Virus record (IMG/VR): IMGVR_UViG_3300012933_000331 | Span: 38,070 to 102,069 of that record | DNA from: a virus | Taxonomy: Duplodnaviria; Heunggongvirae; Uroviricota; Caudoviricetes | Length of the DNA stretch: 64,000 nt | Reading direction: 5' to 3' (one strand) | In this document: positions 36,991 through 49,232 of the stretch, one piece after another | Position numbering within the stretch: the first letter of the stretch is position 1 | How the letters are laid out: every line of letters begins with the position of its first letter | The notes under the pieces: generated by a model | The model's input: only the letters and a program-made list of their open reading frames with translations | The model's database searches: none | Told to the model about the DNA's origin: nothing | Made by a program: the position numbers and the translations under genes

Positions 36991-37066
36991 CCGTCTGTGG
37001 TCTAACGGATAAGACAAGGGTCTTCTACACCCTGAGATGTGGGTTCGATTCCTGCCAGACGGGCCA
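36991..37066 (+). tRNA. tRNA-Arg (anticodon TCT).
   Basis: Hand fold. Acceptor ccgtctg/cagacgg; D stem gtct/agac; anticodon loop cttctac; T loop ttcgatt; CCA encoded. Confidence 0.7.
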
Positions 37067-37128
37067 AATTTCAAACTTGAACATTTGTTTAAATCAGATT
37101 ATAATATAGTCTGATTTGGAGAAATAAT

Positions 37129-37296
37129 ATGAACAAAACAGTCGTTGTAGTAACTTCAACTGAACTTGGTTGGGACTGCATTGTAGGAGTATACCAAGGA
37201 GTTGCTTTAGAAGACTTGGAAGCCTCATACAAGGGCGATTGCTACGTTTTTACAGAACGCGATATAGAAACTACTGCACCTGATTTGGACGACTAA
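37129..37296 (+). CDS. Hypothetical protein (55 aa).
   Basis: Promoter TGATATAAT is upstream; the ATG follows a purine-rich stretch. Confidence 0.35.
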   Translation: MNKTVVVVTSTELGWDCIVGVYQGVALEDLEASYKGDCYVFTERDIETTAPDLDD

Positions 37297-37297
37297 T

Positions 37298-37528
37298 ATG
37301 AACAACATAGCAAACGAACTTCTGGGCAAAGCACTAGACAAACAGGTGCCATATACCTGGCATAGCCTAAACCGCGTTCAGCTAGATGATGTTATGAAAG
37401 AGTTTGCTGAGTTGCTTATCAAGGAATGTACAGAACGGGTTTGGTATACTCGTGAAGATAGTGTCAATGGCAACATTTCTGAAGTTATCAAACAGCGGAT
37501 AAAACAACATTTCGGAGTTCAACAATGA
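37298..37528 (+). CDS. Hypothetical protein (76 aa).
   Basis: Track ORF. Confidence 0.4.
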   Translation: MNNIANELLGKALDKQVPYTWHSLNRVQLDDVMKEFAELLIKECTERVWYTREDSVNGNISEVIKQRIKQHFGVQQ

Positions 37529-37613
37529 GTACATTTGAAATCAAACTGCTAATTTTGGGCACTACTATGCTTGGTGCTGGAATGATGTGGCCTGGTAGTA
37601 TCCTGGGAAGGGT

Positions 37614-37949
37614 ATGCCAATGAGTACATACACACCAGATACATGGGTTGTTTTAGAATTTATGACACCCAGTATGACTACACCACTACGCAAAGTTTTT
37701 GCGGGTTGGTACGGCGGATTTGCTGGAGCTAATAGCTGGCAACTTAATTCCGGCATTACTAATACACGATTAGTAGATGGTTGGTGGGAGTTTGATGGTT
37801 ACTCAGGCAGTGTATATCGCTGTCATCCTGACAGTTATCACATGAGTTCACTAATGCAAGACGTACTATCAAAATGGCTAAAACAAGCTGACGAGCGTGG
37901 TGATACTCAGATCAGAATTTTGACATTTGACGAAGCCGCTATTTGTTGA
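37614..37949 (+). CDS. Hypothetical protein (111 aa).
   Basis: Track ORF. Confidence 0.4.
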   Translation: MPMSTYTPDTWVVLEFMTPSMTTPLRKVFAGWYGGFAGANSWQLNSGITNTRLVDGWWEFDGYSGSVYRCHPDSYHMSSLMQDVLSKWLKQADERGDTQIRILTFDEAAIC

Positions 37950-37976
37950 TATAATATAGGCTGATTTGGAGATATT

Positions 37977-38177
37977 ATGGCAGGCTATTCACGCGACTTT
38001 TTAATTGATGCCTTCATGAGCCGTTACATCAAATGTACCTTGATTTCAATCGAGAGTCTTGTACGGCTAGAACAAATGGCAAATGATCTTTATGATCGAG
38101 TAGGTCGCGATAGCTTTCGTACTTATGCTAGCTTAGATGCTACAGCACTTCGAGTCTATAAAAACAGTCTTGAATGA
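37977..38177 (+). CDS. Hypothetical protein (66 aa).
   Basis: Track ORF; promoter TGATATAAT upstream. Confidence 0.35.
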   Translation: MAGYSRDFLIDAFMSRYIKCTLISIESLVRLEQMANDLYDRVGRDSFRTYASLDATALRVYKNSLE

Positions 38178-38490
38178 TCGTGTTCTTTACTGTATAATTA
38201 GTTCTTTAAATAATATAATGGCCCGTTTGCATCACTGACTTGCTCCCTAATGAGTTATATGCTTCGTAAAATGCGATTACCAAGGTAGTTGGTGGTAATT
38301 GTGGTTGTCTAACTTGAGGACTGTCGTCCAAGAGTCATAAGACTATATGAGCCACTTAGGGGTGGCCCTCATATATTAGCGTAATTGACGGTTCGGTTAA
38401 CTGGGCGGAAATCCAGTTGCCGTTTCGGTAGGTTTGACGGCCTGCGAAAAGCCATGCGTCAACATGGTAATATTGATTATGCTAATATAT

Positions 38491-38672
38491 GGGTCGGTAG
38501 CTTAACGTGGTTAAAGCGCAAATCCGGACTGTTCCTCCCTTCAGACAACGATCACCCTGCCAACCCTGCGCAACAGGTGTTCACGGTGACTAGCTCTGGG
38601 CTGATTTGCAATATACGCTTGTGGGAAACAGAAATTTTAGAGAAGTTGGTTCGAGGCCAACCTGACCCACCA
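38491..38672 (+). ncRNA. tRNA-like RNA of 182 nt. It has a perfect 7-bp acceptor stem, a D-arm, a T-arm and a CCA end, but the anticodon region is replaced or interrupted by a ~110-nt insertion. Either an intron-containing tRNA or a YrlA-type tRNA-mimic.
   Basis: Acceptor gggtcgg/ctgaccc; D stem gctt/aagc; T arm gttgg-ttcgagg-ccaac then a-cca. A candidate anticodon stem caaat/atttg (519-523 with 604-608) encloses an 80-nt insert, followed by a 36-nt 'variable' segment. The locus 38190..38800 has a promoter and no credible ORF. Confidence 0.45.
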
Positions 38673-38837
38673 TATTTAAACAGCCTGGCGTGGCCAGCGG
38701 TAACGAGACTGTGGCTCCGGTGAATGTCCACCTTGTTATGTCGCAGTAACAGACTGTTTAAATATGGGTTTAAAAATTTACACTTGTGGTAGTTGTGCTT
38801 TTCGAGTATAATTACTACTCTTTGAAAGAAACACAAC

Positions 38838-38978
38838 ATGAGAGTATTTACCAAAGTAAACGGCAATTTGTTGGTGTGGGAAGTTCAAGATATGACTCCT
38901 GAACAAGCAATCAGTGCTGTTCGTGATGAACTTGGTGTAGGTCACAAATCAGTTATCTTGGCCCTTGTAAAATATTGA
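38838..38978 (+). CDS. Small protein (46 aa).
   Basis: Promoter GAGTATAAT and RBS gaaagaaac are upstream. Confidence 0.35.
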   Translation: MRVFTKVNGNLLVWEVQDMTPEQAISAVRDELGVGHKSVILALVKY

Positions 38979-39256
38979 CTTGATTGTGCAGCTTAAACAC
39001 TGTATAATAGATACTTATTCAGCGATAGTTCCGACACTAACATAGGACTTCGCAGATAGATCAGAACAATGTGGGCGGGAGTATGCCAATTAGTGAAACA
39101 CTGTTAATTCAGTGGGTGTATGGTGAAACAGATGCACTGGTCGAGACCCTCAGATTACCAGCTCTGAGCTAACAAAAAGGTTACAGATTTCTGATCTTGC
39201 TGCCACCGACAGATCTTCATATCGGGGAGATTTCGCACTATTCTAAAAAGTGTTAT

Positions 39257-39330
39257 CTCGGTGTAGTGAAATGGCATCACCCGTGCTTTGGGAGCATGAA
39301 GCGCAAGTTCGATTCTTGCCATCGAGACCA
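39257..39330 (+). tRNA. tRNA-Pro (TGG).
   Basis: Acceptor ctcggtg/catcgag; anticodon loop tttggga; T loop ttcgatt; CCA. Confidence 0.7.
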
Positions 39331-39701
39331 TATTGTTGTGGCCTTTGCTAGATTCCGGTTCAGTCTCGGAGCTTTACAAGAAGAAGTGGCCTTGCTTTCT
39401 AGATAAGCATTGTCTATACCTTGAGCTTAATATATATCAAGAAGTAATTGATCTATGTAAAATTAAGCCGATGCCTTAGCGGGTGTGGTAGTAAACAAAG
39501 GCTACAACAATATGGTAATTAAGTCTATCTCAATAGTTCAAAGTCTATATGCAGACCACATGAAGAAAACATCTTATATAACATATAAAGATGCTAAAGG
39601 TCATGAAATAGTCAGACAAGTTGTTGAGCAGTCTGTTACCTACAGTAAGTTCCCTGTGGCTGGAAACGGCAAGGGCTTATATGTAGATTTAGTAGTATAA
39701 T

Positions 39702-39785
39702 GCGTTGGTGGTGGAATGGTATACACGCTGGTCTTAGAAGCCAGTGCCGAAAGGATTGAGAGTTCGAGTCTCTCTCGACGCACCA
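39702..39785 (+). tRNA. tRNA-Leu (TAG), type II.
   Basis: Anticodon loop cttagaa; long variable arm; T arm gagag-ttcgagt-ctctc; CCA. Confidence 0.65.
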
Positions 39786-39791
39786 CAATTT

Positions 39792-39866
39792 GGGCTGTTA
39801 GTGATAATGGTAGCACAGGGCCTTTGCAAGGCTTAGGCGGGAGTTCGATTCTCCCACGGTCCACCA
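39792..39866 (+). tRNA. tRNA-Ala (TGC).
   Basis: Acceptor gggctgt/acggtcc with a G3:U70 pair; anticodon loop tttgcaa; T arm gggag-ttcgatt-ctccc; CCA. Confidence 0.65.
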
Positions 39867-40128
39867 AAGGAATAATATGAAATCACCAGTATACGGAGCC
39901 AGAGCTGGCAATGTTAAGTGCCGTGGCAAAAAGACAAAACTAATGTCTTGCCTTTGCTGTATGATGATTGATTTTAGATGGGACTATAAGTTCCGCAAAG
40001 CCAAAGAAGAATTTTATGAAAACACGAAAACCTAGGAACCACGTTGCACTTGCGCTGATGAAGCGTGGCGGCAGTGGTTCACATCAAAAAAGCCACAAGC
40101 AGCTTCGTGGCAAATGGAAGCGCAACCT

Positions 40129-40203
40129 GGACGTATAACTTAACGGCTAAAGTAGTGGGCTTTTAACCTACAAATCAGAGTTCGATTCTCTGTGCGTCTA
40201 CCA
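40129..40203 (+). tRNA. tRNA-Lys (TTT).
   Basis: Anticodon stem gtggg/cctac with loop cttttaa; T arm cagag-ttcgatt-ctctg; CCA. Confidence 0.7.
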
Positions 40204-40318
40204 TATTTGAGCATATTAGCAGATGGCGTTCAACCACTTGTTTAATCCTTGCAAGGCAACACGTTTACGGGAGCAAAGTACAAGTTCCAAAAGTGGATGC
40301 TAGTGTGCTCAAATATGG
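40201..40318 (+). repeat. Conserved inverted-repeat element, copy A. CCATATTTGAGCATAT, ~85-nt loop, then TAGTGTGCTCAAATATGG.
   Basis: Homologous to the elements at 46631..46740 and 47075..47137. The G/C to T/A change between copies is compensatory. Confidence 0.5.
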
Positions 40319-40325
40319 TATTTAC

Positions 40326-40417
40326 GGCTCTATAGTTTAATGGTAAAACGGCGGATTTATATCCCGTAAGCAACAGATAATTGGTTCATCTGGGTTCGAG
40401 TCCCGGTGGAGCTACCA
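40326..40417 (+). tRNA. Type-II tRNA (92 nt) with an ambiguous anticodon. It reads TAT by standard numbering, but the anticodon stem has a mismatch.
   Basis: Acceptor ggctcta/tggagct; T arm ctggg-ttcgagt-cccgg; CCA; ~22-nt variable arm. The loop tttatat does not match any canonical type-II isoacceptor. Confidence 0.45.
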
Positions 40418-40422
40418 AATAC

Positions 40423-40510
40423 GGAACACTGGCCGACCGGTTAAGGCATCAGATTGCTAATCTGACATTCAGTAATGGGTGAGTAGGTTCGATTCCTACG
40501 TGTTCCGCCA
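40423..40510 (+). tRNA. tRNA-Ser (GCT), type II.
   Basis: Acceptor ggaacac/gtgttcc; anticodon stem tcaga/tctga with loop ttgctaa; CCA. Confidence 0.7.
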
Positions 40511-40517
40511 AATTCAT

Positions 40518-40591
40518 GGTGTTTCTAGTGTAGTGGCAGCACTGCTGTCTGTGAAACAGTAAGCCAGGGTTCGATTCCCGGATTCACCCCA
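40518..40591 (+). tRNA. tRNA-His (GTG), probable. The acceptor stem has two U·U mismatches as I parsed it.
   Basis: Anticodon stem gctgt/acagt with loop ctgtgaa; T loop ttcgatt; discriminator C; a possible G-1. Confidence 0.45.
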
Positions 40592-40601
40592 AAAGGTTTT
40601 T

Positions 40602-40820
40602 ATGTCAGAAATTCAAGTATTACTAGATAAAGAAGCCAACCTAGCCAATCGTCGTAGCTTAGTGCACAAACAAATTGTGGTACTACGTGGGGAAACTCCT
40701 CCAGCGTGCTGGGGTAACGATGATTGCTCAACCAATATTATGTCACAATGCCCTTGGCGCATTGACTGTGACGGTCATGAAGCCGAACAGTGGCAGTCAA
40801 TTAATAGCTGGCAATTCTAA
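40602..40820 (+). CDS. Cys-rich hypothetical protein (72 aa).
   Basis: Track ORF lying between tRNAs. Confidence 0.35.
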   Translation: MSEIQVLLDKEANLANRRSLVHKQIVVLRGETPPACWGNDDCSTNIMSQCPWRIDCDGHEAEQWQSINSWQF

Positions 40821-40895
40821 GCCGATGTAGCTCAGTTGGTAGAGCAGCGGATTGAAAATCCGTGTGTCACTGGTTCGACCCCAGTCTTCGGCACC
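40821..40895 (+). tRNA. tRNA-Phe (GAA).
   Basis: D arm gctcagttggtagagc; anticodon loop ttgaaaa; T loop ttcgacc; CCA. Confidence 0.7.
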
Positions 40896-41076
40896 AAGTA
40901 TTTATAAGTTTGACCCTAAGCTGGAGTAGTTCTCTAGTCCTTTACCAACGGCCTAACTAGCCTAGTAGTTCTATAGGCCAACGCCTCGGCTCATACTCGA
41001 CCGTAGTTGGGGTTAAACTTATAAATATAGACTTGATTGTACAGCCTATTTGTTGTATAATTATCTTTTACGCAAT

Positions 41077-41151
41077 ACTGCTATCGTCTATCGGTTAGGA
41101 CACCGGGTTTTCAACCCGATAAGAGGGGTTCGACTCCCCTTAGCAGTACCA
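41077..41151 (+). tRNA. tRNA-Glu (TTC).
   Basis: Acceptor actgcta/tagcagt; anticodon loop ttttcaa; T arm agggg-ttcgact-cccct; CCA. Confidence 0.6.
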
Positions 41152-41156
41152 CACAC

Positions 41157-41231
41157 ACTGGGGTAGCTCAGCGGCAGAGCACTCGCTTGATAAGCGATAG
41201 GTCGAGGTCTCGGAATCCTCCCTCAGTACCA
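41157..41231 (+). tRNA. tRNA-Ile (GAT).
   Basis: Acceptor actgggg/cctcagt; D arm gctcagcggcagagc; anticodon loop ttgataa; CCA. Confidence 0.6.
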
Positions 41232-41333
41232 GATAACTTCTCCCGAAGTTACAGTCCAGGACACGCGGACTCAAAAACGATGTGGAAGTGGGTGGAAGCC
41301 CCACACTTTTACACACAACACACAGGAGATACT

Positions 41334-41564
41334 ATGAGTAAATCACCTTTTGAAATTCGTCTTGAAATCCTCAAGATGACCGCAGAGCTTATGCAAGCTG
41401 AGTATGAATCCAACATGGAGTTCATTACCGAAATGCAAGAAAACCTGGCTGACAAGGGAATGAACACCCAGGCTATGATTGAAAAATTCATGCCCAAGCC
41501 TTTTGACTTCCAAGAAATGCTGGAAAAGTCCAAGAAGTTTTACGAGTTTGTAAATGCTAAGTGA
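41334..41564 (+). CDS. Hypothetical protein (76 aa).
   Basis: RBS caggagat precedes the ATG. Confidence 0.45.
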   Translation: MSKSPFEIRLEILKMTAELMQAEYESNMEFITEMQENLADKGMNTQAMIEKFMPKPFDFQEMLEKSKKFYEFVNAK

Positions 41565-41568
41565 TTTA

Positions 41569-41709
41569 ATGAAGAAACTTCAGGATGTGTTTAGACCATA
41601 CACATTTGAAGATTTCGTCAAAGATCAAAACCCACAAACTTGGTCAGAATTAAAAGAACTAGAGCGTACTTGGTATCGTGCCAAGGACGACTTTAAGAAA
41701 ATGTATTAA
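41569..41709 (+). CDS. Small protein (46 aa).
   Basis: Tight spacing with the preceding gene. Confidence 0.35.
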   Translation: MKKLQDVFRPYTFEDFVKDQNPQTWSELKELERTWYRAKDDFKKMY

Positions 41710-41779
41710 CGCGGGGAGTCAGGGTAGAGGCAAGCCTCATAAGCTCCGCCTGGAAGGTTCGAGTCCTTCCCCCGCAACC
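41709..41779 (+). tRNA. Degenerate tRNA-like element. Good T arm, acceptor and CCA with a CTCATAA (Met-like) anticodon loop, but a truncated D region. Possible tRNA-Met pseudogene or an unusual tRNA.
   Basis: T arm gaagg-ttcgagt-ccttc; 3' ccccgca-a-cca; only 71 nt; anticodon stem has 3 bp. Confidence 0.3.
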
Positions 41780-42200
41780 AATACGGCCTTCCAGCACTCT
41801 AGCGAGCTGCTTAGTGAACTGGTAAAATCGGCACTTGGCCTGCCACCATATTTTGACAATAGATACGATTGCTTATCTGAGGAAACTCGCCGGTGTATCC
41901 CGTCTATGTGTGGATATAAGCACCACGCTACATTGTCATTGCAGGCTTGTAAACAAATCAGTGCTAATACCACTGTCCTGCGTCCGTTGAAGCGAAAACA
42001 AGATGGGCTGCTCTCACGGGGTTTGATGTTTCCTGACACAAAAATAACACACACTTAAAGCTACTGTTTGCTTATGGCTACAGACTATGCCCCCTTAGTG
42101 GATCTTAAACAGCGTCAATGTCTTCAGTGTCAACGAAATGTCACGCCGGAGAATGTAACCGGCACTAATACCAGTGCAGCTGCGATGATTAAGATCGCAC

Positions 42201-42275
42201 GGACACGTAGCACAGCGGTAGTGCAGCAGGTTCATATTCTGTTGGTCGCTGGTTCAAATCCAGCCGTGTCCACCA
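42201..42275 (+). tRNA. tRNA-Met (CAT).
   Basis: Acceptor ggacacg/cgtgtcc; anticodon loop ttcatat; T loop ttcaaat; CCA. Confidence 0.7.
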
Positions 42276-42369
42276 CAAAAAATTCAGACTTGTTGTTGAA
42301 ATCAAAAGTCTGTATAATTAATGTTTTAGCGGCGAGAACAATAGTTCGCTGAACAGATTCTGAAAAATG

Positions 42370-42401
42370 AACTTGTTCTCGCAGTTATTATTTGATATAA
42401 T
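42370..42401 (+). promoter_or_regulatory. sigma70 promoter (TTGTTC, 17-nt spacer, TGATATAAT) for the Y-RNA-like element.
   Basis: Read directly from the sequence. Confidence 0.45.
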
Positions 42402-42407
42402 AGATAC

Positions 42408-42725
42408 TTAAATTAAAGAACTTAGTGTAGTGATTAGATTTCAGGTACTTCATACTATGAAACTACCGTTAAATTCGCAACATTCAGCAGGTCTTCGTTG
42501 CTCCTGCCTAAGTTTAAGGTAAGCGTTCTTTGATAGGTAAACGCTTCCAGCCCTGAACTAGAGTGTTCTCTCTGAGTTCTTTAATTTAGGTATAGTGAAA
42601 GAAACAGTTACTTCACTTCTAATGACGATGTCGGTGGTTCGAGTCCACCTAAGCTGGTCTCTAGCTTATAGCTCAGTTGGTAGAGCGCGCAAATCTCTGT
42701 TTCGCCTAGTTCTTACTTATTTACA
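42408..42725 (+). ncRNA. Candidate Y-RNA-like (YrlA-type) ncRNA immediately upstream of rsr. It has a long terminal helix and a tRNA-like module.
   Basis: An 18-bp helix forms between 42409-42426 (taaattaaagaacttagtg) and 42573-42590 (ctgagttctttaattta). A T-arm/acceptor-3' module ggtgg-ttcgagt-ccacc-taagctg lies at 42627..42656. It is followed by a tRNA 5'-half-like segment (tagctta-ta-gctcagttggtagagc…) at 42668..42700. No credible ORF; rsr starts at 42735. Confidence 0.4.
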
Positions 42726-42734
42726 AGGAATCAA

Positions 42735-44045
42735 ATGTCTTCGATCAATCGTGTTGTGCGTCAGCCTGCTACAAATTCAGTGGGTACGCAAGTATCCCAA
42801 ATTAATGCAGAACGTCAGCTAAAGCGTGTAACCATGGCAGCAATGTTGTGGGAAAACCAGTTCTATATGGACGGTAAAACTCATGCCGAATTGGTCAAAG
42901 ACCTTGTAGCCAAAGTCGCTCCTGAAAAGGTTTCGGCTCTGGCTGAGGAAGCCCGTACAAAGTTTAAACTTCGTCACATTCCTCTGTTGCTTGTACGCGA
43001 ACTTGCTCGAAACGGAAAAATGCAAGCACAAGCCCTAACCAATGTTATTCAACGTCCAGACGAAATGTCTGAATTTTTGAGTATCTATTGGAAGGAAGGC
43101 AAAACTGCTGTATCGAACCAAGTTAAAAAAGGCCTTGCAGCTTGCTTTAACAAGTTTTCGGAATACCAGCTTGCCAAATGGAATAAGAATTCATCCGCAA
43201 TCAAATTGCGCGATGTAATGTTTATCTCCCACCCTAAACCGCAAAATGCCGAGCAAACAGCGCTGTTCCAGCGCATTGCGGCTGATACACTTGAAACTCC
43301 CGACACATGGGAAACTCAATTATCTAGCGGCGCAGATAAGTGTGGTACGTTTACTCGTCTTATGACTGAGAAGAAGCTAGGTGCTCTAGCTTTCTTGCGT
43401 AATCTGCGTAATATGCGCGACAGTGGTGTAGCGGATTCCCTTATCCGCAGTTATGCACAAACTGTTGACGTTAGCAAAGTCCTGCCTTTCCGCTATATTG
43501 CGGCGGCACGTATTGTTCCACAATACGAGGATATGCTAGAACAAATGATGTTTCGCAGCCTAGCGACACATCAAAAAATTCCTGGAAAGACTGTTCTGTT
43601 GATCGACGTAAGTGGCTCAATGTTCGGTACCAGAATTTCCTCAAAATCAGATCTAGATCGCTTCGATGCGGCAGCAGCACTCGCTATGCTGTGCCGTGAA
43701 GTTTGTGAGGAAGTCGAGATTTATAGCTTTAGTAATAATGCTGTGCGCGTTGCACCTCGTCGTGGATTTGCTCTCCGCGAAGCTATTTCAAGCTCTCAAA
43801 GTCACGGTGGAACTGCTCTTGGCAATTCCATGAAGACTGTAAACAGCGCGAGTTCATATGACCGTTGCATTGTGTTTACTGATGAGCAAAGCTATGATCG
43901 CCCAGGTGCTCCTCGTGGTAAAGGTTACGTTATCAACGTAGCTGCCTACGAAAACGGAGTCAACCACCAAGCATGGACTGAGATCAATGGTTTCTCAGAA
44001 GCTGTAATTGATTACATCCAGGCATTGGAGCAGGAAGCTGCTTAA
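42735..44045 (+). CDS. rsr: Ro60 ortholog Rsr (TROVE plus vWA domains).
   Basis: C-terminal vWA domain with MIDAS motif VLLIDVSGSM…GGTALGN…CIVFTDEQSY, closely matching the Ro60 pattern (DVSxSM…GGTD…IVFTDNE). The N-terminus is TROVE-like. Confidence 0.7.
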   Translation: MSSINRVVRQPATNSVGTQVSQINAERQLKRVTMAAMLWENQFYMDGKTHAELVKDLVAKVAPEKVSALAEEARTKFKLRHIPLLLVRELARNGKMQAQALTNVIQRPDEMSEFLSIYWKEGKTAVSNQVKKGLAACFNKFSEYQLAKWNKNSSAIKLRDVMFISHPKPQNAEQTALFQRIAADTLETPDTWETQLSSGADKCGTFTRLMTEKKLGALAFLRNLRNMRDSGVADSLIRSYAQTVDVSKVLPFRYIAAARIVPQYEDMLEQMMFRSLATHQKIPGKTVLLIDVSGSMFGTRISSKSDLDRFDAAAALAMLCREVCEEVEIYSFSNNAVRVAPRRGFALREAISSSQSHGGTALGNSMKTVNSASSYDRCIVFTDEQSYDRPGAPRGKGYVINVAAYENGVNHQAWTEINGFSEAVIDYIQALEQEAA

Positions 44046-44428
44046 CCTACTTACCCACGACCCAAGCCTGTAGCCAGTCAGGTGTTATAAAGGTGGGGCT
44101 CTAAGCTAAGGGCTTAGAATAGCATATGGTGCACTAGTACAGTTACTTCTATTTGGTTTGAAAACACACTGTACTTAATTATTCCTATGTTATTCTAAGC
44201 CCTTTGCGCTTTTATCGGCTACTTCTAGACTCTTAATCTAACCAAAACACCGATAATACTTATTCAAGGGCTATTTTATTATTGCTTTGGCGATAGTTAC
44301 AGTTTCATCAAAAGTTCGATTCTTTTATTACGAGCCTATTCGTTATTCGCCAAGTGGTATGGCACCGGAAGCATATTCCGGGAAAACTCTGTAGCGATTT
44401 ATTCCAAGCACCTTACAAGGAAATTACA

Positions 44429-44677
44429 ATGAGTGATGGTGGCAAAGGCTCAAAGCCTAGACCCTTAAGCGTAGCAAACGAAGAATACGCAGCACGCTGG
44501 GACGCAATCTTTGGTCGCGATAGGCTAGAAGATTCGGAAACAGACAAAACAACTCGTAATAATAGCGAAACACAAGAAGCCTTGGCACAAGGCAAGTCGG
44601 TTCCACTTTCAAGTCTGCCTGAACTACAAGAAATTGTATGCAAAGGCTTAGCTGATGGTACACTCTTCTTAAGTTAA
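44429..44677 (+). CDS. Hypothetical acidic protein (82 aa).
   Basis: RBS aaggaaat precedes the ATG; start trimmed. Confidence 0.4.
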   Translation: MSDGGKGSKPRPLSVANEEYAARWDAIFGRDRLEDSETDKTTRNNSETQEALAQGKSVPLSSLPELQEIVCKGLADGTLFLS

Positions 44678-44681
44678 ATAT

Positions 44682-44755
44682 ATGTCCCTGGTGTAATGGC
44701 AGCACGTTGGTCTCCAAAACCATTGGTCAGAGTTCGAGTCTCTGGGGGCGTGCCA
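44682..44755 (+). tRNA. tRNA-Trp (CCA).
   Basis: Anticodon loop ctccaaa; T arm cagag-ttcgagt-ctctg; CCA. Confidence 0.65.
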
Positions 44756-44806
44756 AAATTTAGACTTGTTGTTGATTTCAAAACTTGATATAATTATTCT
44801 TTAAAC

Positions 44807-44892
44807 GGAGAAGATGTTCTAATGGTAGGACAGCGGATTGTAAATCCGTGGCCTCTAGAGGCAAGTGGGTTCGATCCCCTCATTCTCCACCA
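44807..44892 (+). tRNA. tRNA-Tyr (GTA), type II.
   Basis: Acceptor ggagaag/attctcc; anticodon stem gcgga/tccgt with loop ttgtaaa; 15-nt variable arm; CCA. Confidence 0.7.
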
Positions 44893-44899
44893 GATTTAT

Positions 44900-44983
44900 G
44901 CGACTGTGGTGGAATGGTATACACAGCAGACTTAAAATCTGCCGCTTAATTGATTAAGGGTTCAAGTCCCTTCAGTCGTACCA
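44900..44983 (+). tRNA. tRNA-Leu (TAA), type II.
   Basis: Acceptor gcgactg/cagtcgt; anticodon stem gcaga/tctgc with loop cttaaaa; CCA. Confidence 0.7.
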
Positions 44984-45432
44984 GTTTAGTCTAGTAAGGA
45001 AAGTAAACGGAGAATGGGAAGCGATAGAGAGCTGAATCGAATCGCGGATACCTCACCGGCTAGACATTTCATATGGTCTTAAAGTGTTCATGGACGCACA
45101 CAGCACTGTCACTGCTGTAGATGGGGATCGTTACCCCATAAGACCGCCAAATTTATCAGTACCTATCATAGATAAGTAAGTTACGTCAAGCTGTATATGC
45201 TTATAAGCGTCTAATAAGATTTACTATACTGATTATAGAACCTGCCTTAGGTCCGTGCCGTTACGGTTAGAGCGTCCGTAACTCATCCGTTGGATACGAT
45301 AAGTCCAAGCTGGAACCGTAACCAGCACTATTATTTTAGCGTATTACCATCCATTATAAACAAGCAGGAGAGATACCTGTTGTCCAGCGATCACATCAAC
45401 GGGGTAAGGGGTAGTGTGCTAAACTAATATAT

Positions 45433-45507
45433 TCCACAGTAGCACAGCGGTAGTGCAAACGACTGTTAATCGTTTGGTCATTGGTTCGATCCCAGTCTGT
45501 GGAGCCA
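45433..45507 (+). tRNA. tRNA-Asn (GTT).
   Basis: Acceptor tccacag/ctgtgga; anticodon stem aacga/tcgtt with loop ctgttaa; CCA. Confidence 0.7.
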
Positions 45508-45636
45508 AATATAGTCTTAGTGAATAAATCAGTTACTTCTTTTAATGCTTATAAAAACGATGCCCGTTCGATTCGTGGCAAGGCCGCTGGTGCATGGGCC
45601 AATATCTGATTTTACTGTTCTAGACTTTTCTTTTGT

Positions 45637-45710
45637 TGGGGGTTAGTGAAATGGTATCACACGGGATTTTGATTCCCTTGTCACAGGTTCGATTCCTGTA
45701 CCCTCTGCCA
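45637..45710 (+). tRNA. tRNA-Gln (TTG).
   Basis: Anticodon loop ttttgat; T arm acagg-ttcgatt-cctgt; CCA. One mismatch at acceptor positions 1-72. Confidence 0.55.
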
Positions 45711-45718
45711 CACTTAAT

Positions 45719-45795
45719 GCGTTCGTAGCATAACTGGATAATGCCCTAGCCTACGAAGTTAGAAATTGGGAGTTCGAATCTCTCCGGACGCTCCA
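45719..45795 (+). tRNA. tRNA-Arg (ACG).
   Basis: Acceptor gcgttcg/cggacgc; anticodon loop ctacgaa; T arm gggag-ttcgaat-ctctc; CCA. Confidence 0.7.
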
Positions 45796-45803
45796 CATAT
45801 ATC

Positions 45804-46274
45804 ATGCACAAATTTAACTTACAAGAAGTCAAAGACTTCATTAATGCTCAGTCAGCTGAAACCAAGGTTTACCTTGGCGCTGATAGCGAACGTGTTAAAG
45901 TTAATGGTGTATGGCACGCTGACTATACTCTAGCAGTTGTTGTTCACATTGACGGTAATCACGGTTGCAAAATCTTTGGTTCAGTAACTCGTGAACGCGA
46001 CTTTGACCAAAAGGTGTCGAAACCAGCACTTCGCTTAATGCAAGAAGTATATAAGGTTTCAGACCTATTTCATGAACTTTCAGATGTACTACAAGATCGT
46101 CACGTTGAAGTTCACCTAGATATTAACCCCAACCTAATGTACGGTTCTAGCTGTGTTGTTCAACAAGCTATTGGCTATATCAAAGGTACTTGTAATGTTG
46201 ATGCTCAAGTAAAGCCCAACGCTTTTGCAGCAAGCTATGCTGCTGACCGATTAAAATTTGTATTGGCTAACTAA
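45804..46274 (+). CDS. Hypothetical protein (156 aa).
   Basis: Track ORF. Confidence 0.5.
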   Translation: MHKFNLQEVKDFINAQSAETKVYLGADSERVKVNGVWHADYTLAVVVHIDGNHGCKIFGSVTRERDFDQKVSKPALRLMQEVYKVSDLFHELSDVLQDRHVEVHLDINPNLMYGSSCVVQQAIGYIKGTCNVDAQVKPNAFAASYAADRLKFVLAN

Positions 46275-46479
46275 AATGTCCGACCGCTTCGACCTAGAAC
46301 AAAATATCATGCAATGCTGGAATGTTTGTGATGACATTCAGCTGATGCTTGATATGTATGATAAGCTGGACGAAGATGCCAAGCAAAACTATTTGATCGG
46401 ACTCAAACAAATGTATCAAATGAAGTTTGAGCGATTATGGGACAACTTTGAAGGTTGTATTCGTCGTAAACAAATTTAA
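46258..46479 (+). CDS. Hypothetical protein (73 aa).
   Basis: Track ORF overlapping the previous stop. Confidence 0.4.
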   Translation: MYWLTKMSDRFDLEQNIMQCWNVCDDIQLMLDMYDKLDEDAKQNYLIGLKQMYQMKFERLWDNFEGCIRRKQI

Positions 46480-46480
46480 T

Positions 46481-46555
46481 GTAGGTGTGGCGGAACGGCT
46501 ACGCGTCGGATTGCAAATCCGTTCTATGCAGGTTCGAGTCCTGTCACCTACTCCA
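46481..46555 (+). tRNA. tRNA-Cys (GCA).
   Basis: Acceptor gtaggtg/cacctac; anticodon loop ttgcaaa; T loop ttcgagt; CCA. Confidence 0.65.
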
Positions 46556-46557
46556 AT

Positions 46558-46633
46558 GCCGGTTTAGCTCAGTTGGTAGAGCAACTCCCTTGTAACGAGA
46601 AGGTCGCGTGTTCGATTCATGCAACCGGCACCA
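46558..46633 (+). tRNA. tRNA-Thr (TGT).
   Basis: Acceptor gccggtt/aaccggc; D arm gctcagttggtagagc; anticodon loop cttgtaa; T loop ttcgatt; CCA. Confidence 0.6.
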
Positions 46634-46740
46634 TATTTTAGCATATTACTTGCCACTTAATGCATATATGTGGAGTAACGCGCGCACACCTTCCACGGGT
46701 AATCAGGAGCACCTGACATGGGTAGTATGCTAAAATATGG
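46631..46740 (+). repeat. Conserved inverted-repeat element, copy B. CCATATTTTAGCATAT, ~75-nt loop, then TAGTATGCTAAAATATGG. Its right arm is the 5' end of the tmRNA acceptor piece.
   Basis: Covaries with copy A (40201..40318). Identical 12- and 14-mers recur at 47077..47088 and 47122..47135. Confidence 0.5.
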
Positions 46741-47090
46741 TTGTATGAAGCAGACAGAAACAGGTTCTGGACGCGGGTTCGAGTCCCGCCAGCTCCACCA
46801 TAAGCGTATTTAAGGGGGTTCGAGTCCTCTCTATAAAACTGGTAGTTGTAAGTAATACGCTTTTGATGGGGCTGCATTTGGTTTCGACAGGGCAAAGAGT
46901 AAACAAGTAGACAACTCGGCAATGTAGAAGCCGTAGGGTTAGGGATTCCTGGCCGCAGAAGCAAAACAAAAATAAACGCAAACGATACACAGTTCGCATT
47001 GGTAGCCTAACAGCCGCCTAGGGTTTTGTCAGGTTTTCCTCGTAACAGAATAAACCTGACCCTAAACCAACATAAATTTTAGCATATTGA
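46721..47090 (+). ncRNA. ssrA: Circularly permuted (two-piece) tmRNA gene. The acceptor piece (…T arm, CCAGCUCCACCA) is at ~46721..46800, an intervening segment at 46801..46867, and the coding piece (GGGGCUG…tag ORF…) at 46868..~47090.
   Basis: The 3' hallmark ctggacgcgggttcgagtcccgccagctccacca ends at 46800, upstream of the 5' hallmark ggggctgcatttggtttcgacaggg beginning at 46868. Acceptor pairing ggggctg/cagctcc keeps G3:U70. The resume codon and tag GCA AAC GAT ACA CAG TTC GCA TTG GTA GCC TAA (46978..47010) encode (A)ANDTQFALVA, preceded by …gcaaaacaaaaataaac as in E. coli tmRNA. No T arm or acceptor follows the tag. A putative P2 pairing joins 46722-46735 with 47077-47088. Confidence 0.7.
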
Positions 47091-47149
47091 ACCACATATG
47101 GCAATCAGAGCCGGACTGTCGTAGTATGCTAAAATTTATGAAGGAAACC

Positions 47150-47737
47150 ATGAAATACACAAACATTCTCGACCCTAAATTGTTTCAGTCGGACAAATAC
47201 TCAAACAATTTCACCAAGCCAGTCGCACACATTCATGAGTTTTATCTTAGCGGGCCAATTTGTGACGCTGAAGAATACATTGAGTGGTTTGACGTTATTC
47301 GTAACGCATCAGCAACTGACACAATTCGCATTTACATCAATAGCCCTGGTGGTGACCTATTTACTACACTACAGTTCTTGCGAGTAATGTCGGACACAGA
47401 TGCTACTGTTGTTTGTAGTGTAGAAGGCGCTTGTATGAGTGCAGCTACCATGATCTTCCTACACGGTCATAGTCAAGAAGTTACTCCACATAGCTTGTTT
47501 ATGTTTCACAACTATAGTGCCGGAACATTTGGCAAAGGCGGCGAAATGTACGATCAGCTGCAGTTTGAACGTACTTGGTCAGAAAACTTTATGACTGAAG
47601 TGTATCAAGGCTTTTTGACACCTGAAGAAATCTCCTCAATGATGCACAACAAAGACATTTGGATGGGTTCTGAAGAAGTTGTCCGTCGTCTAACAGCCAT
47701 GCAAGCACAGCGTGAAGCTGAAGCAGCACAAGAATAA
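47150..47737 (+). CDS. clpP: ClpP-like serine protease (S14 family).
   Basis: …IYINSPGGDLFTTLQFL…VEGACMSAATMIFLHGH… matches ClpP signatures (INSPGG, GxAxSxAxxI). RBS aaggaaa precedes the ATG at 47150. The gene lies immediately downstream of the tmRNA. Confidence 0.65.
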   Translation: MKYTNILDPKLFQSDKYSNNFTKPVAHIHEFYLSGPICDAEEYIEWFDVIRNASATDTIRIYINSPGGDLFTTLQFLRVMSDTDATVVCSVEGACMSAATMIFLHGHSQEVTPHSLFMFHNYSAGTFGKGGEMYDQLQFERTWSENFMTEVYQGFLTPEEISSMMHNKDIWMGSEEVVRRLTAMQAQREAEAAQE

Positions 47738-47778
47738 AACATGGCTAAACCCTCTGCGCAAGTACGGTTTAGTTCTCT

Positions 47779-47870
47779 GGAAAGTAATGCAGCGGGGTTG
47801 GTCCTGCGACTGGCCTTGAAAACCAGGTTCTCAGAAATGGGATGGGGTTCGACTCCTCTGCTTTCCGCCA
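47779..47870 (+). tRNA. tRNA-Ser (TGA), type II.
   Basis: Acceptor ggaaagt/gctttcc; D stem gcag/ctgc; anticodon loop cttgaaa; long variable arm; CCA. Confidence 0.6.
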
Positions 47871-47876
47871 TAAGAC

Positions 47877-47945
47877 AGCACACTGGGTGTGGCACATCCA
47901 TTAAATCAAGCTGGTTTGAGTCCGGCAGCCACAGTGTGCTTTCTT
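47877..47945 (+). ncRNA. Long irregular hairpin (9 bp, bulge, 4 bp) capped by a T-arm-like stem-loop gctgg-tttgagt-ccggc, followed by ttcttat. Either a tRNA-like minihelix or the operon terminator.
   Basis: agcacactg (877-885) pairs with cagtgtgct (932-940), and tggc (890-893) with gcca (928-931). A T-run follows. Confidence 0.3.
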
Positions 47946-48269
47946 ATGGCTATTTCATTTAAAAACATCAAAGACCCTAAACTGGGGATAACTGATACAA
48001 TCACATTTGGTAAACTAAAAGGTTGCCGTGTATGCGATGTAGCCCAAGATCATTACGAATACTTGATTTGGGCTGAAAAGTCCGGTTACGTTAAGTTTCA
48101 AACCGAGGCTATTGAGCTGATTCAAGAGCAGGCTAGTTTTGCCCGTTGGCAGATACATGAAGCCGAAGAAGTTGCCCCATACATGGATGGCAACAAATAC
48201 GAATACTTGGCAGAAATTGCCAGTCGTCAAGACTATGACACAAGTTTTGAAGATGATGTTCCATTTTAA
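47946..48269 (+). CDS. Hypothetical protein (107 aa).
   Basis: Track ORF 47889..48269 trimmed to the first ATG after the hairpin. Confidence 0.45.
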   Translation: MAISFKNIKDPKLGITDTITFGKLKGCRVCDVAQDHYEYLIWAEKSGYVKFQTEAIELIQEQASFARWQIHEAEEVAPYMDGNKYEYLAEIASRQDYDTSFEDDVPF

Positions 48270-48270
48270 T

Positions 48271-48346
48271 GCGTGCTTAGCTCAGCTGGTAGAGCAGTTC
48301 GTTGCCAACGAACAGGTCGCAGGTTCGAACCCTGTAGCCCGCACCA
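48271..48346 (+). tRNA. tRNA-Gly (GCC).
   Basis: D arm gctcagctggtagagc; anticodon stem gttcg/cgaac with loop ttgccaa; T loop ttcgaac; CCA. Confidence 0.7.
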
Positions 48347-48370
48347 CAATTACCCTTGCGCCAAACTGGC

Positions 48371-48756: not shown

Positions 48757-48801
48757 CCTTCCAAGCTAGTGAGACGAGTTCGATCCTCGTACCCCGCTCC
48801 A
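48728..48801 (+). tRNA. tRNA-Gly (TCC).
   Basis: Acceptor gcggggt/accccgc; anticodon stem ctagc/gctag with loop cttccaa; T arm acgag-ttcgatc-ctcgt; CCA. Confidence 0.7.
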
Positions 48802-48805
48802 ATTT

Positions 48806-49173: not shown

Positions 49174-49232
49174 ACTTGAACAAATCCCCTAAAGCCAGTA
49201 TAATATATACTTCTTTAGGGGATTTCTGCATT

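What the first reader, a model, noticed from the sequence alone, without database searches (positions are those of the whole stretch)
38190..38800. tRNA-like gene with a ~110-nt insertion inside a 600-nt non-coding locus
Positions 38491..38672 have a perfect tRNA acceptor stem (gggtcgg/ctgaccc), a D arm, a canonical T arm (gttgg-ttcgagg-ccaac) and an encoded ACCA end. Where the anticodon stem should be, a 5-bp helix (caaat/atttg) encloses an 80-nt insert and is followed by 36 extra nucleotides. The surrounding 600 nt have a promoter (38193) but no credible ORF; the 112-aa track ORF across it translates to low-complexity, Trp/Arg-rich sequence. The insertion is too small for a group I intron. 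Candidates are an intron-containing or disrupted tRNA, a second Y-RNA/YrlA-like tRNA mimic 4 kb from rsr, or another tRNA-derived ncRNA.
Basis: seen in the sequence. Interest (0 to 1): 0.65.

Follow-up and report, generated by a model that had tools for sequence, protein, structure and literature searches.

The report
Self-pairing tRNA-shaped phage RNA
A phage tRNA gene cluster encodes a conserved RNA with the body of a tRNA but no anticodon; a branched arm sits there instead, carrying two short self-complementary motifs that suggest the RNA pairs with copies of itself, a combination not described before.

Summary
The tRNA-like features at 38491-38672 are real. The 7-bp acceptor stem, D arm, T arm and encoded ACCA recur in 29 distinct uncultured-phage sequences, with compensatory changes in every stem. 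ARAGORN and Rfam find nothing there.

The conserved structure has four parts:
- a weak AAA/UUU stem remnant;
- a 6-nt bulge;
- a strongly covarying 9-10 bp helix;
- a junction carrying a variable arm and a 3-bp hairpin with a 15-nt loop.

It is not an intron, because no anticodon arm can be rebuilt and no intron-less allele exists. It is not the phage's YrlA, which lies at 42601-42706 beside rsr; the element also occurs in relatives that lack rsr at that site. It is not coding.

The bulge is always a palindrome, but a different one in different lineages: UCCGGA, GCCGGC, GCUAGC, GUCGAC, UCGCGA. The hairpin loop keeps UUCGAA or UUGCAA. Adjacent bases cannot pair within one chain, so this points to symmetric pairing between copies, as in OLE and GOLLD RNAs.

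Best reading: a processed, non-decoding tRNA mimic that forms dimers or oligomers. Its function is unknown.

The parts
38170..38198 (+). Sigma-70-like promoter (TTGAAT, 17 nt, TATAAT) upstream of the non-coding locus
   Evidence: The stretch 38150-38222 is 84-89% identical in L001, L002, L006, L007 and L013, and 80% identical in L011.
38205..38375 (+). Structured leader: U1 at about 38205-38345 and the U2 hairpin at 38344-38375. Not part of the conserved RNA.
   Evidence: Fold of 38200-38492 gives z = -3.66. U1 is found only in L018/L019 (the same two contigs also held as L062/L076). U2 is found in a few loci.
38370..38491 (+). Flanking module U3: a closing stem of about 20 bp (CATATATTAGCGTAATTGA / TTGATTATGCTAATATATGG) around three small hairpins. 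Its 3' strand ends on G1-G2 of the tRNA-like RNA.
   Evidence: 8 pairs with changes on both sides in 6 sequences. It lies upstream of the element in L008, L011 and L096 but downstream of it in L004.
38491..38672 (+). The tRNA-like RNA: a 182-nt predicted mature product running from G1 to the encoded CCA
   Evidence: There is one copy per contig, in 29 distinct sequences.
38491..38497 (+). Acceptor stem, 5' strand (pairs with 38662-38668)
   Evidence: 7 pairs, 100% paired, 3 pairs with changes on both sides. Variants are GGGTCGG, GGATCGG, GGGACGG and GGGCCGG; L155 has GGGAGAG/CTCTCCC.
38500..38517 (+). D arm (GCTT, loop AACGTGGTTA, AAGC)
   Evidence: 4 pairs, 2 with changes on both sides (GATT/AATC and GCCT/AGGC).
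38520..38522 (+). AAA, a possible 3-bp remnant of the anticodon stem pairing with TTT in 38635-38638
   Evidence: Only weakly supported; some relatives (L100, L103, L093) cannot form it.
38523..38528 (+). Palindrome 1: TCCGGA, a 6-nt bulge between the stem remnant and helix Pa. Proposed site of symmetric pairing with a second copy.
   Evidence: It is palindromic in 29 of 29 sequences with five different sequences. All three symmetric position pairs change on both sides.
38529..38539 (+). Helix Pa, 5' strand (CTGTT..TCCC), pairing with 38623-38631 (GGGAAACAG)
   Evidence: The helix is 9-10 bp with many compensatory variants, such as CTACAACCC/GGGTTGTAG, ATACAACAC/GTGTTGTAT, ATACTTCCC/GGGAAGTAT and CTAGTATCC/GGATTGCTAG.
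38542..38598 (+). Arm Pb: a long arm that varies between three subtypes, capped by a CGCAA loop at 38569-38573
   Evidence: The (C)GCAA loop is conserved in most members while the arm sequence is not.
38599..38619 (+). Hairpin H: 3-bp stem GGC/GCT around the 15-nt loop TGATTTGCAATATAC
   Evidence: The middle pair is C-G in 15 sequences and G-C in 12.
38606..38611 (+). Palindrome 2: TTGCAA in the loop of hairpin H (TTCGAA in most relatives). Proposed second site of self-pairing.
   Evidence: It is palindromic in 29 of 29 (TTCGAA in 25, TTGCAA in 4). The central CG to GC swap has only itself as a complementary partner.
38623..38631 (+). Helix Pa, 3' strand
38632..38644 (+). A/U-rich linker plus the equivalent of the variable loop (AAATTTTAGAGAA)
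38645..38661 (+). T arm (GTTGG, TTCGAGG, CCAAC)
   Evidence: 5 pairs, 2 with changes on both sides. Relatives have GCAGG/CCTGC or GTGGG/CCCAC.
38662..38672 (+). Acceptor stem 3' strand, discriminator A and encoded CCA
   Evidence: CCA is encoded in all but L098, L100, L105 and L155.
38670..38767 (+). Flanking module D1: a 14-bp closing stem (CCATATTTAAACAG / CTGTTTAAATATGG) that starts on the CCA of the tRNA-like RNA, with a branched interior
   Evidence: 6 pairs with changes on both sides. It is present in only some relatives.

Best explanation
This is the gene of a stable non-coding RNA of about 180 nt with the body of a tRNA but no anticodon arm. That body comprises a 7-bp acceptor stem, D arm, T arm with a UUCGA loop, discriminator A and an encoded CCA.

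In place of the anticodon arm it has:
- a weak A-U stem remnant;
- a 6-nt bulge;
- a 9-10 bp helix (Pa);
- a three-way junction carrying a variable arm capped by a CGCAA loop, and a small hairpin with a 15-nt loop.

Proposed mechanism, with the status of each step:
1. It is transcribed from the promoter at 38170-38198 together with the flanking hairpin modules. This is inferred.
2. It is cut out like its tRNA neighbours, by RNase P at G1 and by 3' trimming to the CCA. This is inferred from the fact that every tRNA determinant outside the anticodon arm is retained.
3. It cannot decode. This is shown: there is no anticodon stem-loop.
4. The bulge and the hairpin loop are each self-complementary and stay so while their sequences change. 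They therefore pair with the same motifs on a second copy, giving a symmetric dimer or a larger assembly that displays several tRNA-shaped modules. The covariation is shown; the assembly is inferred.
5. The likely role is a multivalent tRNA mimic that engages a tRNA-binding factor during infection. Examples are a decoy for a host tRNA-cleaving defence nuclease, or for a tRNA-processing, modifying or charging enzyme. This step is speculative.
For: Family:
- 29 distinct members come from IMG/VR and metagenome contigs, one copy per contig, always inside a phage tRNA island.

Structure:
- On the 27-sequence alignment, 99.4% of cells are paired and 12 pairs change on both sides. 0 of 500 shuffles reach this, and it collapses when the partners are slid by one column.
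- Helix Pa covaries extensively.

Palindromes:
- Only two of 90 ungapped 6-nt windows are palindromic in all sequences, and both vary.
- Palindrome 1 is TCCGGA (15 sequences), GCCGGC (10), GCTAGC (1), GTCGAC (2) or TCGCGA (1, in the divergent L155).
- Each of its three symmetric position pairs shows a compensatory double change.
- The outer pair (T-A or G-C) and the central CG/GC of palindrome 2 have only each other as complementary covarying columns.
- Self-duplexes are predicted at -7.5 to -11.7 kcal/mol for palindrome 1 and -4 to -7 kcal/mol for palindrome 2.
- The same signature, palindromes switching between GGCC, GAUC and AGCU and between GC and CG, was used and confirmed by cryo-EM as evidence for symmetric intermolecular kissing in OLE and GOLLD (PMC12286853).
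- The window is depleted in TTCGAA (4 observed, 19.9 expected). Even so, its loop changed by the double swap to TTGCAA, which keeps self-complementarity, and not by a single substitution.

Not coding.
Against: - There are no expression, processing or oligomerisation data. The phage group is uncultured.
- The C-to-U and G-to-A changes at the inner positions of palindrome 1 could also be tolerated opposite an invariant G or U through wobble pairing.
- Palindrome 2 rests on one double substitution shared by four related sequences.
- The number of independent events is small: about 4 for palindrome 1 and 1 for palindrome 2.
- Predicted accessibility of the motifs in single-sequence folds is only slightly above average (0.55 and 0.62 against 0.44). 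In the window itself palindrome 2 can pair with the 5' strand.
- The short AAA/UUU helix is poorly supported.
- Nothing computed here bears on the biological role.
Confidence: 0.55

Rival explanations
1. It is a monomeric tRNA-like ncRNA. The two palindromic motifs are not RNA-RNA contacts but recognition sites for a protein (for example a dimeric one) or parts of an intramolecular tertiary fold. The RNA acts alone as a tRNA mimic or scaffold.
For: All the tRNA-body and helix Pa evidence applies equally. The transitions at the inner positions of palindrome 1 are compatible with wobble pairing to invariant G or U elsewhere. UUCGAAU in the hairpin loop is also the T-loop consensus, so it could form a T-loop-like tertiary motif (read from the sequence).
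Against: A sequence-specific protein site would not be expected to take five different sequences that are all palindromes. The transversion pairs (T-A to G-C at the outer positions, C-G to G-C in L155 and in palindrome 2) have no other complementary partner column. Adjacent nucleotides cannot pair within one chain (argument of PMC12286853).
Confidence: 0.25
2. It is a second Y RNA. It would be a ligand of the phage Ro60/Rsr protein, tethering Ro60 to a tRNA-binding effector as YrlA does.
For: A Ro60/TROVE gene lies 4 kb away at 42735-44045. Bacterial and phage Y RNAs contain tRNA-like domains, and each species studied has at least two Y RNAs (PMC4201824). Many element-bearing contigs also encode Ro60.
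Against: The Rfam YrlA model does not match it at E<=10, but it does match 42601-42706 directly upstream of rsr. There is no GNCGAAN0-1G motif, and the window's loop is TTGCAA. The ends form an acceptor stem with CCA, not a Ro-binding stem. The element is present in contigs of 36-100 kb with no detectable Ro60 (those of L008, L010, L013, L014, L015, L020 and L088 and their near-duplicates). In several of these tRNA-Met and tRNA-Trp are adjacent where rsr sits in the window.
Confidence: 0.1
3. It is an intron-containing tRNA gene. The insert of about 110 nt is removed to yield a decoding tRNA.
For: The tRNA body is intact and lies in a tRNA array. Bacterial and phage tRNA genes can carry introns in the anticodon loop (general knowledge).
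Against: The insert is too small for a group I core, and no intron family matches. Precise removal of Pa-Pb-H leaves a 3-bp A-U stem with an 8-9 nt loop. The would-be anticodon in that loop differs between relatives (CGG, UAG, CGA, GCG) while the acceptor stem is conserved. There is no intron-less allele in 29 members. The insert's helices and loops are themselves conserved by compensatory change. Relatives carry a separate tRNA-Thr(UGU), so no tRNA specificity is obviously missing.
Confidence: 0.03
4. It is a processing signal only. A tRNA-shaped structure (like a plant mitochondrial t-element) would be kept to recruit RNase P and RNase Z and punctuate the transcript, or it is a decaying tRNA pseudogene.
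For: It lies between hairpin modules that are themselves flanked by CCA...UGG stems, like those after tRNA-Pro, tRNA-Lys, the tRNA at 46558-46633 and the tmRNA. t-elements are a known precedent (PMC1920247, seen in the listing).
Against: A processing signal needs only the acceptor stem and T arm. Here the D arm, helix Pa, hairpin H and both palindromes are conserved with compensatory changes across 29 sequences. A pseudogene would not show this.
Confidence: 0.05

Closest known systems
YrlA / bacterial and phage Y RNAs (Rfam RF02553; PMC4201824)
   Same: A non-coding RNA with T-arm, D-arm and acceptor-like elements. It is found in phages that encode Ro60, and some are substrates of RNase P and the CCA-adding enzyme.
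   Different: YrlA is circularly permuted relative to tRNA: its ends form the Ro60-binding stem and its acceptor-like stem is closed by a loop. It carries GNCGAAN0-1G and lies next to rsr. This RNA has the native tRNA order with an encoded CCA, lacks the motif, does not match the model, and occurs in contigs with no rsr detected. The window has its own YrlA-like RNA at 42601-42706.
tmRNA (the window's own two-piece tmRNA lies at 46699-47065)
   Same: A tRNA-like acceptor and T-arm module with a large structured insertion where the anticodon arm would be. It is encoded in the same tRNA island. There is weak profile similarity between the element's 3' part and the tmRNA acceptor piece (E = 5.5e-5).
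   Different: tmRNA has no D stem, and it has a G3-U70 alanine identity pair, pseudoknots and a tag reading frame. This RNA has a full D arm and G-C or A-U at 3:70, and it matches no tmRNA model.
GOLLD, ROOL and OLE RNAs, the 'ornate' RNAs that form RNA-only homo-oligomers (PMC12286853; PMC12990946)
   Same: GOLLD and ROOL are encoded in phages and prophages near tRNA islands and have no known function. Loops pair symmetrically with the same loop of another chain, as revealed by palindromes that change yet stay palindromic. Some GOLLD RNAs have a tRNA embedded in them.
   Different: Those RNAs are about 600-800 nt or more and unrelated in sequence and fold, and nothing here matches their Rfam models. 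Here the topology is inverted: a small assembly module is embedded in a tRNA body. Oligomerisation here is inferred, not observed.
HIV-1 DIS kissing loop and phi29 pRNA (from general knowledge; not tested here)
   Same: Short loop sequences drive RNA-RNA association. The DIS is a 6-nt palindrome flanked by purines, as in AAA-UCCGGA-C here. The pRNA loop-loop pairing was first inferred from covariation among related phages.
   Different: Both have an unrelated fold and role (genome dimerisation, packaging motor). Neither has a tRNA body.
Phage T4 'species 1' stable RNA in the T4 tRNA cluster (from memory; no paper retrieved)
   Same: A stable non-tRNA RNA of about 140 nt and unknown function, encoded within a phage tRNA gene cluster and processed with the tRNAs.

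Membership tests
tRNA (Rfam RF00005 / ARAGORN) | 7-bp acceptor stem, discriminator base and 3' CCA | tested here: met
   38491-38497 / 38662-38668 plus ACCA. 100% paired in 27 sequences, with 3 covarying pairs.
tRNA (Rfam RF00005 / ARAGORN) | D arm and T arm with the conserved elbow nucleotides (GG in the D loop, UUCRA in the T loop) | tested here: met
tRNA (Rfam RF00005 / ARAGORN) | 5-bp anticodon stem with a 7-nt loop carrying an anticodon | tested here: not met
   There is no such hairpin. The position is taken by a 6-nt bulge followed by a 9-10 bp helix and a junction.
tRNA (Rfam RF00005 / ARAGORN) | Recognised by tRNA finders | tested here: not met
   ARAGORN finds 25 tRNAs in the window but none here, and none at the homologous site in any relative. 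The Rfam tRNA model gives no hit at E<=10.
Intron-containing bacterial or phage tRNA (group I intron in the anticodon loop) | The insert has a group I catalytic core | tested here: not met
   No Rfam match of any kind in 38100-38900 at E<=10. The insert is about 110 nt.
Intron-containing bacterial or phage tRNA (group I intron in the anticodon loop) | Joining the flanks restores a canonical anticodon stem-loop of constant identity | tested here: not met
   The flanks give at most 3 A-U pairs and an 8-9 nt loop made of the variable palindrome.
Intron-containing bacterial or phage tRNA (group I intron in the anticodon loop) | Intron-less alleles exist in relatives | tested here: not met
   All 29 members carry the insert.
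YrlA / Y RNA | Match to the YrlA covariance model | tested here: not met
   No hit at E<=10. The model matches 42601-42706 at 35.1 bits.
YrlA / Y RNA | GNCGAAN0-1G Rsr-binding motif near the 5' end (PMC4201824) | tested here: not met
   It is absent from the alignment. TTCGAA lacks the G at position -2, and the window has TTGCAA.
YrlA / Y RNA | 5' and 3' ends pair to form the Ro60-binding stem, with the tRNA-like module permuted | tested here: not met
   The ends form the acceptor stem with CCA, in native tRNA order.
YrlA / Y RNA | Encoded next to rsr (within about 2 kb) and co-occurring with it | tested here: not met
   It lies 4 kb from rsr. It is present in contigs of 36-100 kb with no Ro60 detected, several of which have tRNA-Met and tRNA-Trp adjacent. 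The contigs are incomplete genomes, so absence of rsr elsewhere is not proven.
YrlA / Y RNA | Binds Ro60/Rsr | not testable with these tools
   Needs a gel-shift or co-immunoprecipitation experiment.
tmRNA | G3-U70 alanine identity pair, no D stem, tag reading frame, and a match to tmRNA models | tested here: not met
   Position 3:70 is G-C or A-U, and the D stem is present. There is no tmRNA model hit. The window's real tmRNA is at 46699-47065. No tag reading frame was looked for in the insert.
Self-associating phage-borne structured RNAs (GOLLD / ROOL type) | Match to the GOLLD or ROOL models | tested here: not met
   No Rfam hit.
Self-associating phage-borne structured RNAs (GOLLD / ROOL type) | Encoded in phage tRNA islands | tested here: met
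Self-associating phage-borne structured RNAs (GOLLD / ROOL type) | Unpaired motifs that covary so as to stay palindromic (symmetric intermolecular pairing) | tested here: met
   The criterion is that of PMC12286853.
Self-associating phage-borne structured RNAs (GOLLD / ROOL type) | Forms homo-oligomers | not testable with these tools
   Needs native gels, mass photometry or cryo-EM.

The most novel reading that the evidence does not exclude
A tRNA-shaped RNA that assembles with itself. The anticodon loop has been replaced by a compact assembly module with two symmetric kissing sites, so that phage-infected cells would contain dimers, rings or chains displaying several tRNA bodies. It would be a small counterpart of the ROOL and GOLLD assemblies found in the same genomic niche. 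It would also be the first tRNA mimic whose function depends on multivalency, for instance as a decoy for oligomeric tRNA-targeting defence nucleases or for dimeric tRNA enzymes.
Probability: 0.4. Interest if true: 0.8.

Novelty: new variant of a known kind. Interest (0 to 1): 0.62.

Why it matters
Phage tRNA islands are known to harbour enigmatic structured RNAs (GOLLD, ROOL, Y RNAs, tmRNA) whose roles are largely unknown. This element adds a compact family of about 160-185 nt that joins two themes, tRNA mimicry and RNA self-association, in one small molecule.

Its small size makes the oligomerisation hypothesis directly testable. The motifs are 6 nt long, and a compensatory-mutant design follows directly from them. 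Structure determination should also be within reach.

If the assembly is real, it gives a minimal model for why phages place self-assembling RNAs beside their tRNAs. It would also point to a tRNA-binding target in the host or phage.

The family is also a practical warning for annotation. tRNA finders and Rfam are blind to it, and gene callers place a spurious 112-aa ORF over it.

Tried and rejected
- **RNA finders.** ARAGORN and Rfam (gathering thresholds, then E<=10) find nothing at the locus.
- **Cultured phages.** DNA search of 50,697 deposited phage genomes gave no match. The Ro60 gene is closest to Ralstonia phage RsoM2USA (55% aa), but that phage has no tRNA island around its Ro60 gene and no match to the element profile. 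The neighbouring ORF has only matches of 38% identity or less in cultured phages.
- **Exact 28-nt search** for the T arm plus acceptor in viral contigs found nothing.
- **Bacterial genomes.** The scan of 185,579 species genomes with the D-arm and spacing pattern returned one false positive, a pair of tandem tRNAs.
- **'Missing tRNA-Thr with an intron'.** Rejected. Relatives have tRNA-Thr(UGU) after tRNA-Cys as well as the element, and the window's 46558-46633 is probably that tRNA.
- **Closest tRNA type.** The body resembles none of the 25 tRNAs of the island.
Not conserved.
- **AAA/UUU stem remnant.** Only weak support.
- **Pairing of palindrome 1 with CUCCGGUG in module D1.** D1 is absent from many relatives and does not covary.
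- **Correlation between palindrome 1 and the stem of hairpin H.** Phylogenetic only, with exceptions.
- **Accessibility from partition functions.** Uninformative.
- **Covariance model.** None was built. MAFFT misaligns the 3' strand of Pa between subtypes, so an HMM profile (nhmmer) and a custom scan for interrupted tRNAs were used instead.
- **L163 and other hits of the relaxed pattern.** Not family members; they lack an acceptor 5' strand or a D arm.
Full report
**Setting.** The window is part of a large uncultured phage genome. A tRNA island at 36991-51476 holds 25 tRNAs called by ARAGORN and a two-piece tmRNA at 46699-47065. A Ro60/TROVE-vWA gene lies at 42735-44045. Its nearest cultured relative is in Ralstonia phage RsoM2USA, at 55% amino-acid identity. 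The finding lies between tRNA-Arg(UCU), which is followed by small ORFs, and tRNA-Pro(UGG).

**Observation.**
- acceptor stem 38491-38497 / 38662-38668 (7 pairs, one of them G-U);
- D arm 38500-38517;
- T arm 38645-38661;
- A73 and CCA at 38669-38672;
- a promoter-like site at 38170-38198.

ARAGORN and Rfam report nothing here, even at E<=10. The 112-aa ORF has no Pfam match. The fold energy of the window sequence alone is not unusual (z = +0.45), so the case rests on comparison with relatives.

**Relatives.** The neighbouring ORF 37614-37949 retrieved 59 viral contigs. BLAST, pattern scans of viral and metagenome contigs, a custom scan for interrupted tRNAs and an HMM profile then gave 29 distinct sequences with the same interrupted layout. 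There is one copy per contig, always in a tRNA island. The members are 158-186 nt long.
- The divergent member L155 sits in a differently arranged island, after tRNA-Met, and has no encoded CCA.
- The pattern found no member among 185,579 bacterial species genomes.
- No cultured phage carries it.

**Structure.** On the 27-sequence alignment A3, the stems I specified are 99.4% paired. Twelve pairs change on both sides, 0 of 500 shuffles reach this, and sliding the partners by one column drops pairing to 44-58%.
- Acceptor, D and T stems each covary. Examples are GGGTCGG/CTGACCC, GGATCGG/CCGATCC, GGGACGG, GGGCCGG and GGGAGAG/CTCTCCC; GCTT/AAGC, GATT/AATC and GCCT/AGGC; GTTGG/CCAAC, GCAGG/CCTGC and GTGGG/CCCAC.
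Its 3' strand is part of a hairpin loop that reads AATTCG in 24 of 27 sequences.
- The conserved insert starts with a weak AAA/UUU remnant and a 6-nt bulge.
- Helix Pa follows, 9-10 bp long, with many compensatory variants.
- Pa ends in a junction bearing arm Pb. Pb comes in three subtypes, usually capped by a CGCAA loop.
- The junction also bears hairpin H, a 3-bp stem whose middle pair is C-G in 15 sequences and G-C in 12, around a 15-nt loop.

**The palindromes.** Two 6-nt windows, out of 90 ungapped ones, are palindromic in every sequence, and both vary.
- The bulge is TCCGGA, GCCGGC, GCTAGC or GTCGAC, and TCGCGA in L155. All three symmetric position pairs show compensatory double changes.
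- The loop of hairpin H contains TTCGAA (ATTCGAAT or GTTCGAAT in most) or TTGCAA. TTGCAA occurs in the window, L002, L096 and L166.
- For the transversion pairs (outer T-A/G-C; central CG/GC), no other alignment column is complementary. For the transitions at the inner bulge positions, wobble pairing to an invariant G or U cannot be excluded.
- Neighbouring nucleotides cannot pair within one chain. A motif that changes but stays palindromic therefore indicates pairing with the same motif of another copy. This is exactly the argument used, and confirmed by cryo-EM, for OLE and GOLLD (PMC12286853).
- Palindromic pairing is a common homodimer interface in natural RNAs (PMC12990946).
- Predicted self-duplex energies are -7.5 to -11.7 kcal/mol for the bulge and -4 to -7 kcal/mol for the loop.
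- The window is depleted in TTCGAA (4 observed against 19.9 expected) and enriched in TTGCAA (44 observed). This fits restriction-site avoidance as the pressure to change. A single substitution would have removed the site, so the double swap that keeps self-complementarity argues for a constraint.

**What it is not.**
- *Not an intron.* The insert is too small and matches no intron family. Removing Pa-Pb-H leaves 3 A-U pairs and an 8-9 nt loop whose 'anticodon' would differ between relatives. There is no intron-less allele, and the insert itself is conserved by compensatory change.
- *Not the missing tRNA-Thr.* Relatives carry tRNA-Thr(UGU) as well.
- *Not YrlA.* That model matches 42601-42706 directly upstream of rsr and not this locus. 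[quoted passage not shown]
- *Not tied to rsr.* The element occurs in contigs with no detectable Ro60, in several of which tRNA-Met and tRNA-Trp are adjacent at the site where rsr sits in the window.
- *Not tmRNA.* It has a D stem, has no G3-U70 and matches no tmRNA model.
- *Not coding.* No frame stays open across relatives.

**The rest of the 600-nt locus.** The promoter is followed by a strongly structured leader (z = -3.66). Two modules flank the RNA: U3 at 38370-38491 and D1 at 38670-38767.
- Each module has a long closing stem of the form CCATAT...ATATGG.
- D1's stem begins on the CCA of the tRNA-like RNA. U3's stem ends on the first two G of that RNA.
- Both are conserved with some covariation, but they are present, absent or moved to another position in different relatives.
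- Similar hairpins follow tRNA-Pro, tRNA-Lys, the tRNA at 46558-46633 and the tmRNA.
- The element is thus embedded in the array in the same way as the genuine tRNAs, which supports tRNA-like processing.

**Mechanism proposed.**
- *Shown:* a conserved, non-coding, tRNA-shaped RNA without an anticodon, carrying two motifs kept self-complementary.
- *Inferred:* excision by RNase P and 3' trimming, then symmetric dimer or oligomer formation through the two motifs.
- *Speculative:* action as a multivalent tRNA mimic or decoy toward a tRNA-binding host or phage factor.

**Comparison and novelty.**
- It works like a tRNA mimic (YrlA, the tRNA-like domain of tmRNA). If the inference holds, it also works like the self-associating RNAs of phage tRNA islands (GOLLD, ROOL).
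- It fails the membership tests of each of these families.
- I rate it a new variant of a known kind.
- Limits: there are no expression or biochemical data, the number of independent covariation events is small, and all members come from one uncultured phage clade plus one outlier.

Noticed in passing
window 42601-42706 (+): YrlA-like Y RNA directly upstream of the Ro60/rsr gene (42735-44045). The Rfam RF02553 hit scores 35.1 bits (E = 3.4e-5), below the gathering score of 69, so annotation at default thresholds misses it.
   Followed up: partly
window 38370-38491, 38670-38767, 39327-39516, 40199-40320, 46630-46741, 47071-47140: A recurrent class of inter-tRNA modules. Their long closing stems start on the ACCA of the preceding tRNA (ACCATAT...) and end in ...ATATGGT, around branched interiors. 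U3 and D1 are conserved with covariation, but they are shuffled, present or absent among related phages. They could be RNase III-type processing hairpins, small RNAs or mobile hairpin elements.
   Followed up: partly
window 40326-40417 (+), and the same position in many related loci: tRNA-Ile with anticodon UAU that is 92 nt long because of a long variable arm. That arm is normally a hallmark of Leu, Ser and Tyr tRNAs in bacteria. It is conserved across the phage clade.
   Followed up: no
window 46558-46633 (+): ARAGORN calls this tRNA-Tyr(GTA) with the anticodon at position 35, but the loop reads CUUGUAA. Relatives have tRNA-Thr(UGU) at this position after tRNA-Cys, so it is probably tRNA-Thr(UGU) with a weak anticodon stem.
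   Followed up: partly
window 42276-44681, compared with L010, L015, L020, L013: The YrlA and rsr cassette lies between tRNA-Met and tRNA-Trp in the window and in many relatives. In other relatives these two tRNAs are adjacent, 3-8 nt apart. The Ro60 module is therefore an optional insertion in this tRNA island.
   Followed up: partly
whole window: TTCGAA (4 observed, 19.9 expected) and GTCGAC (2 observed, 10.5 expected) are depleted, while TTGCAA is enriched (44 observed, 19.9 expected). This suggests avoidance of host restriction sites. Three of the four TTCGAA sites lie inside called tRNA genes.
   Followed up: partly
window 46730-46800; L023 3442-3508; L083 7870-7954: The profile of the tRNA-like family gives weak hits (E about 5e-5) to the acceptor piece of the two-piece tmRNA. 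The match extends beyond the T arm (GTTGTATGAAGCAG... against GTTGTATAATTTTAGGAAGCAG...). This could reflect common descent or convergence.
   Followed up: no
L102 3326-3500 (+), metagenome contig Ga0164310_10005312: An unrelated sequence with a tRNA-like start (acceptor-like 5' strand and D arm) and a T arm separated by an insert of about 130 nt of different sequence. It is possibly another kind of interrupted tRNA or tRNA-like RNA.
   Followed up: no
window 38205-38345 (+): A leader segment of about 140 nt (U1) between the promoter and the hairpin modules. It folds stably and is 94% identical in only one related phage, represented by L018/L019 (and the duplicate loci L062/L076). It has no ORF and no Rfam match.
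   Followed up: no
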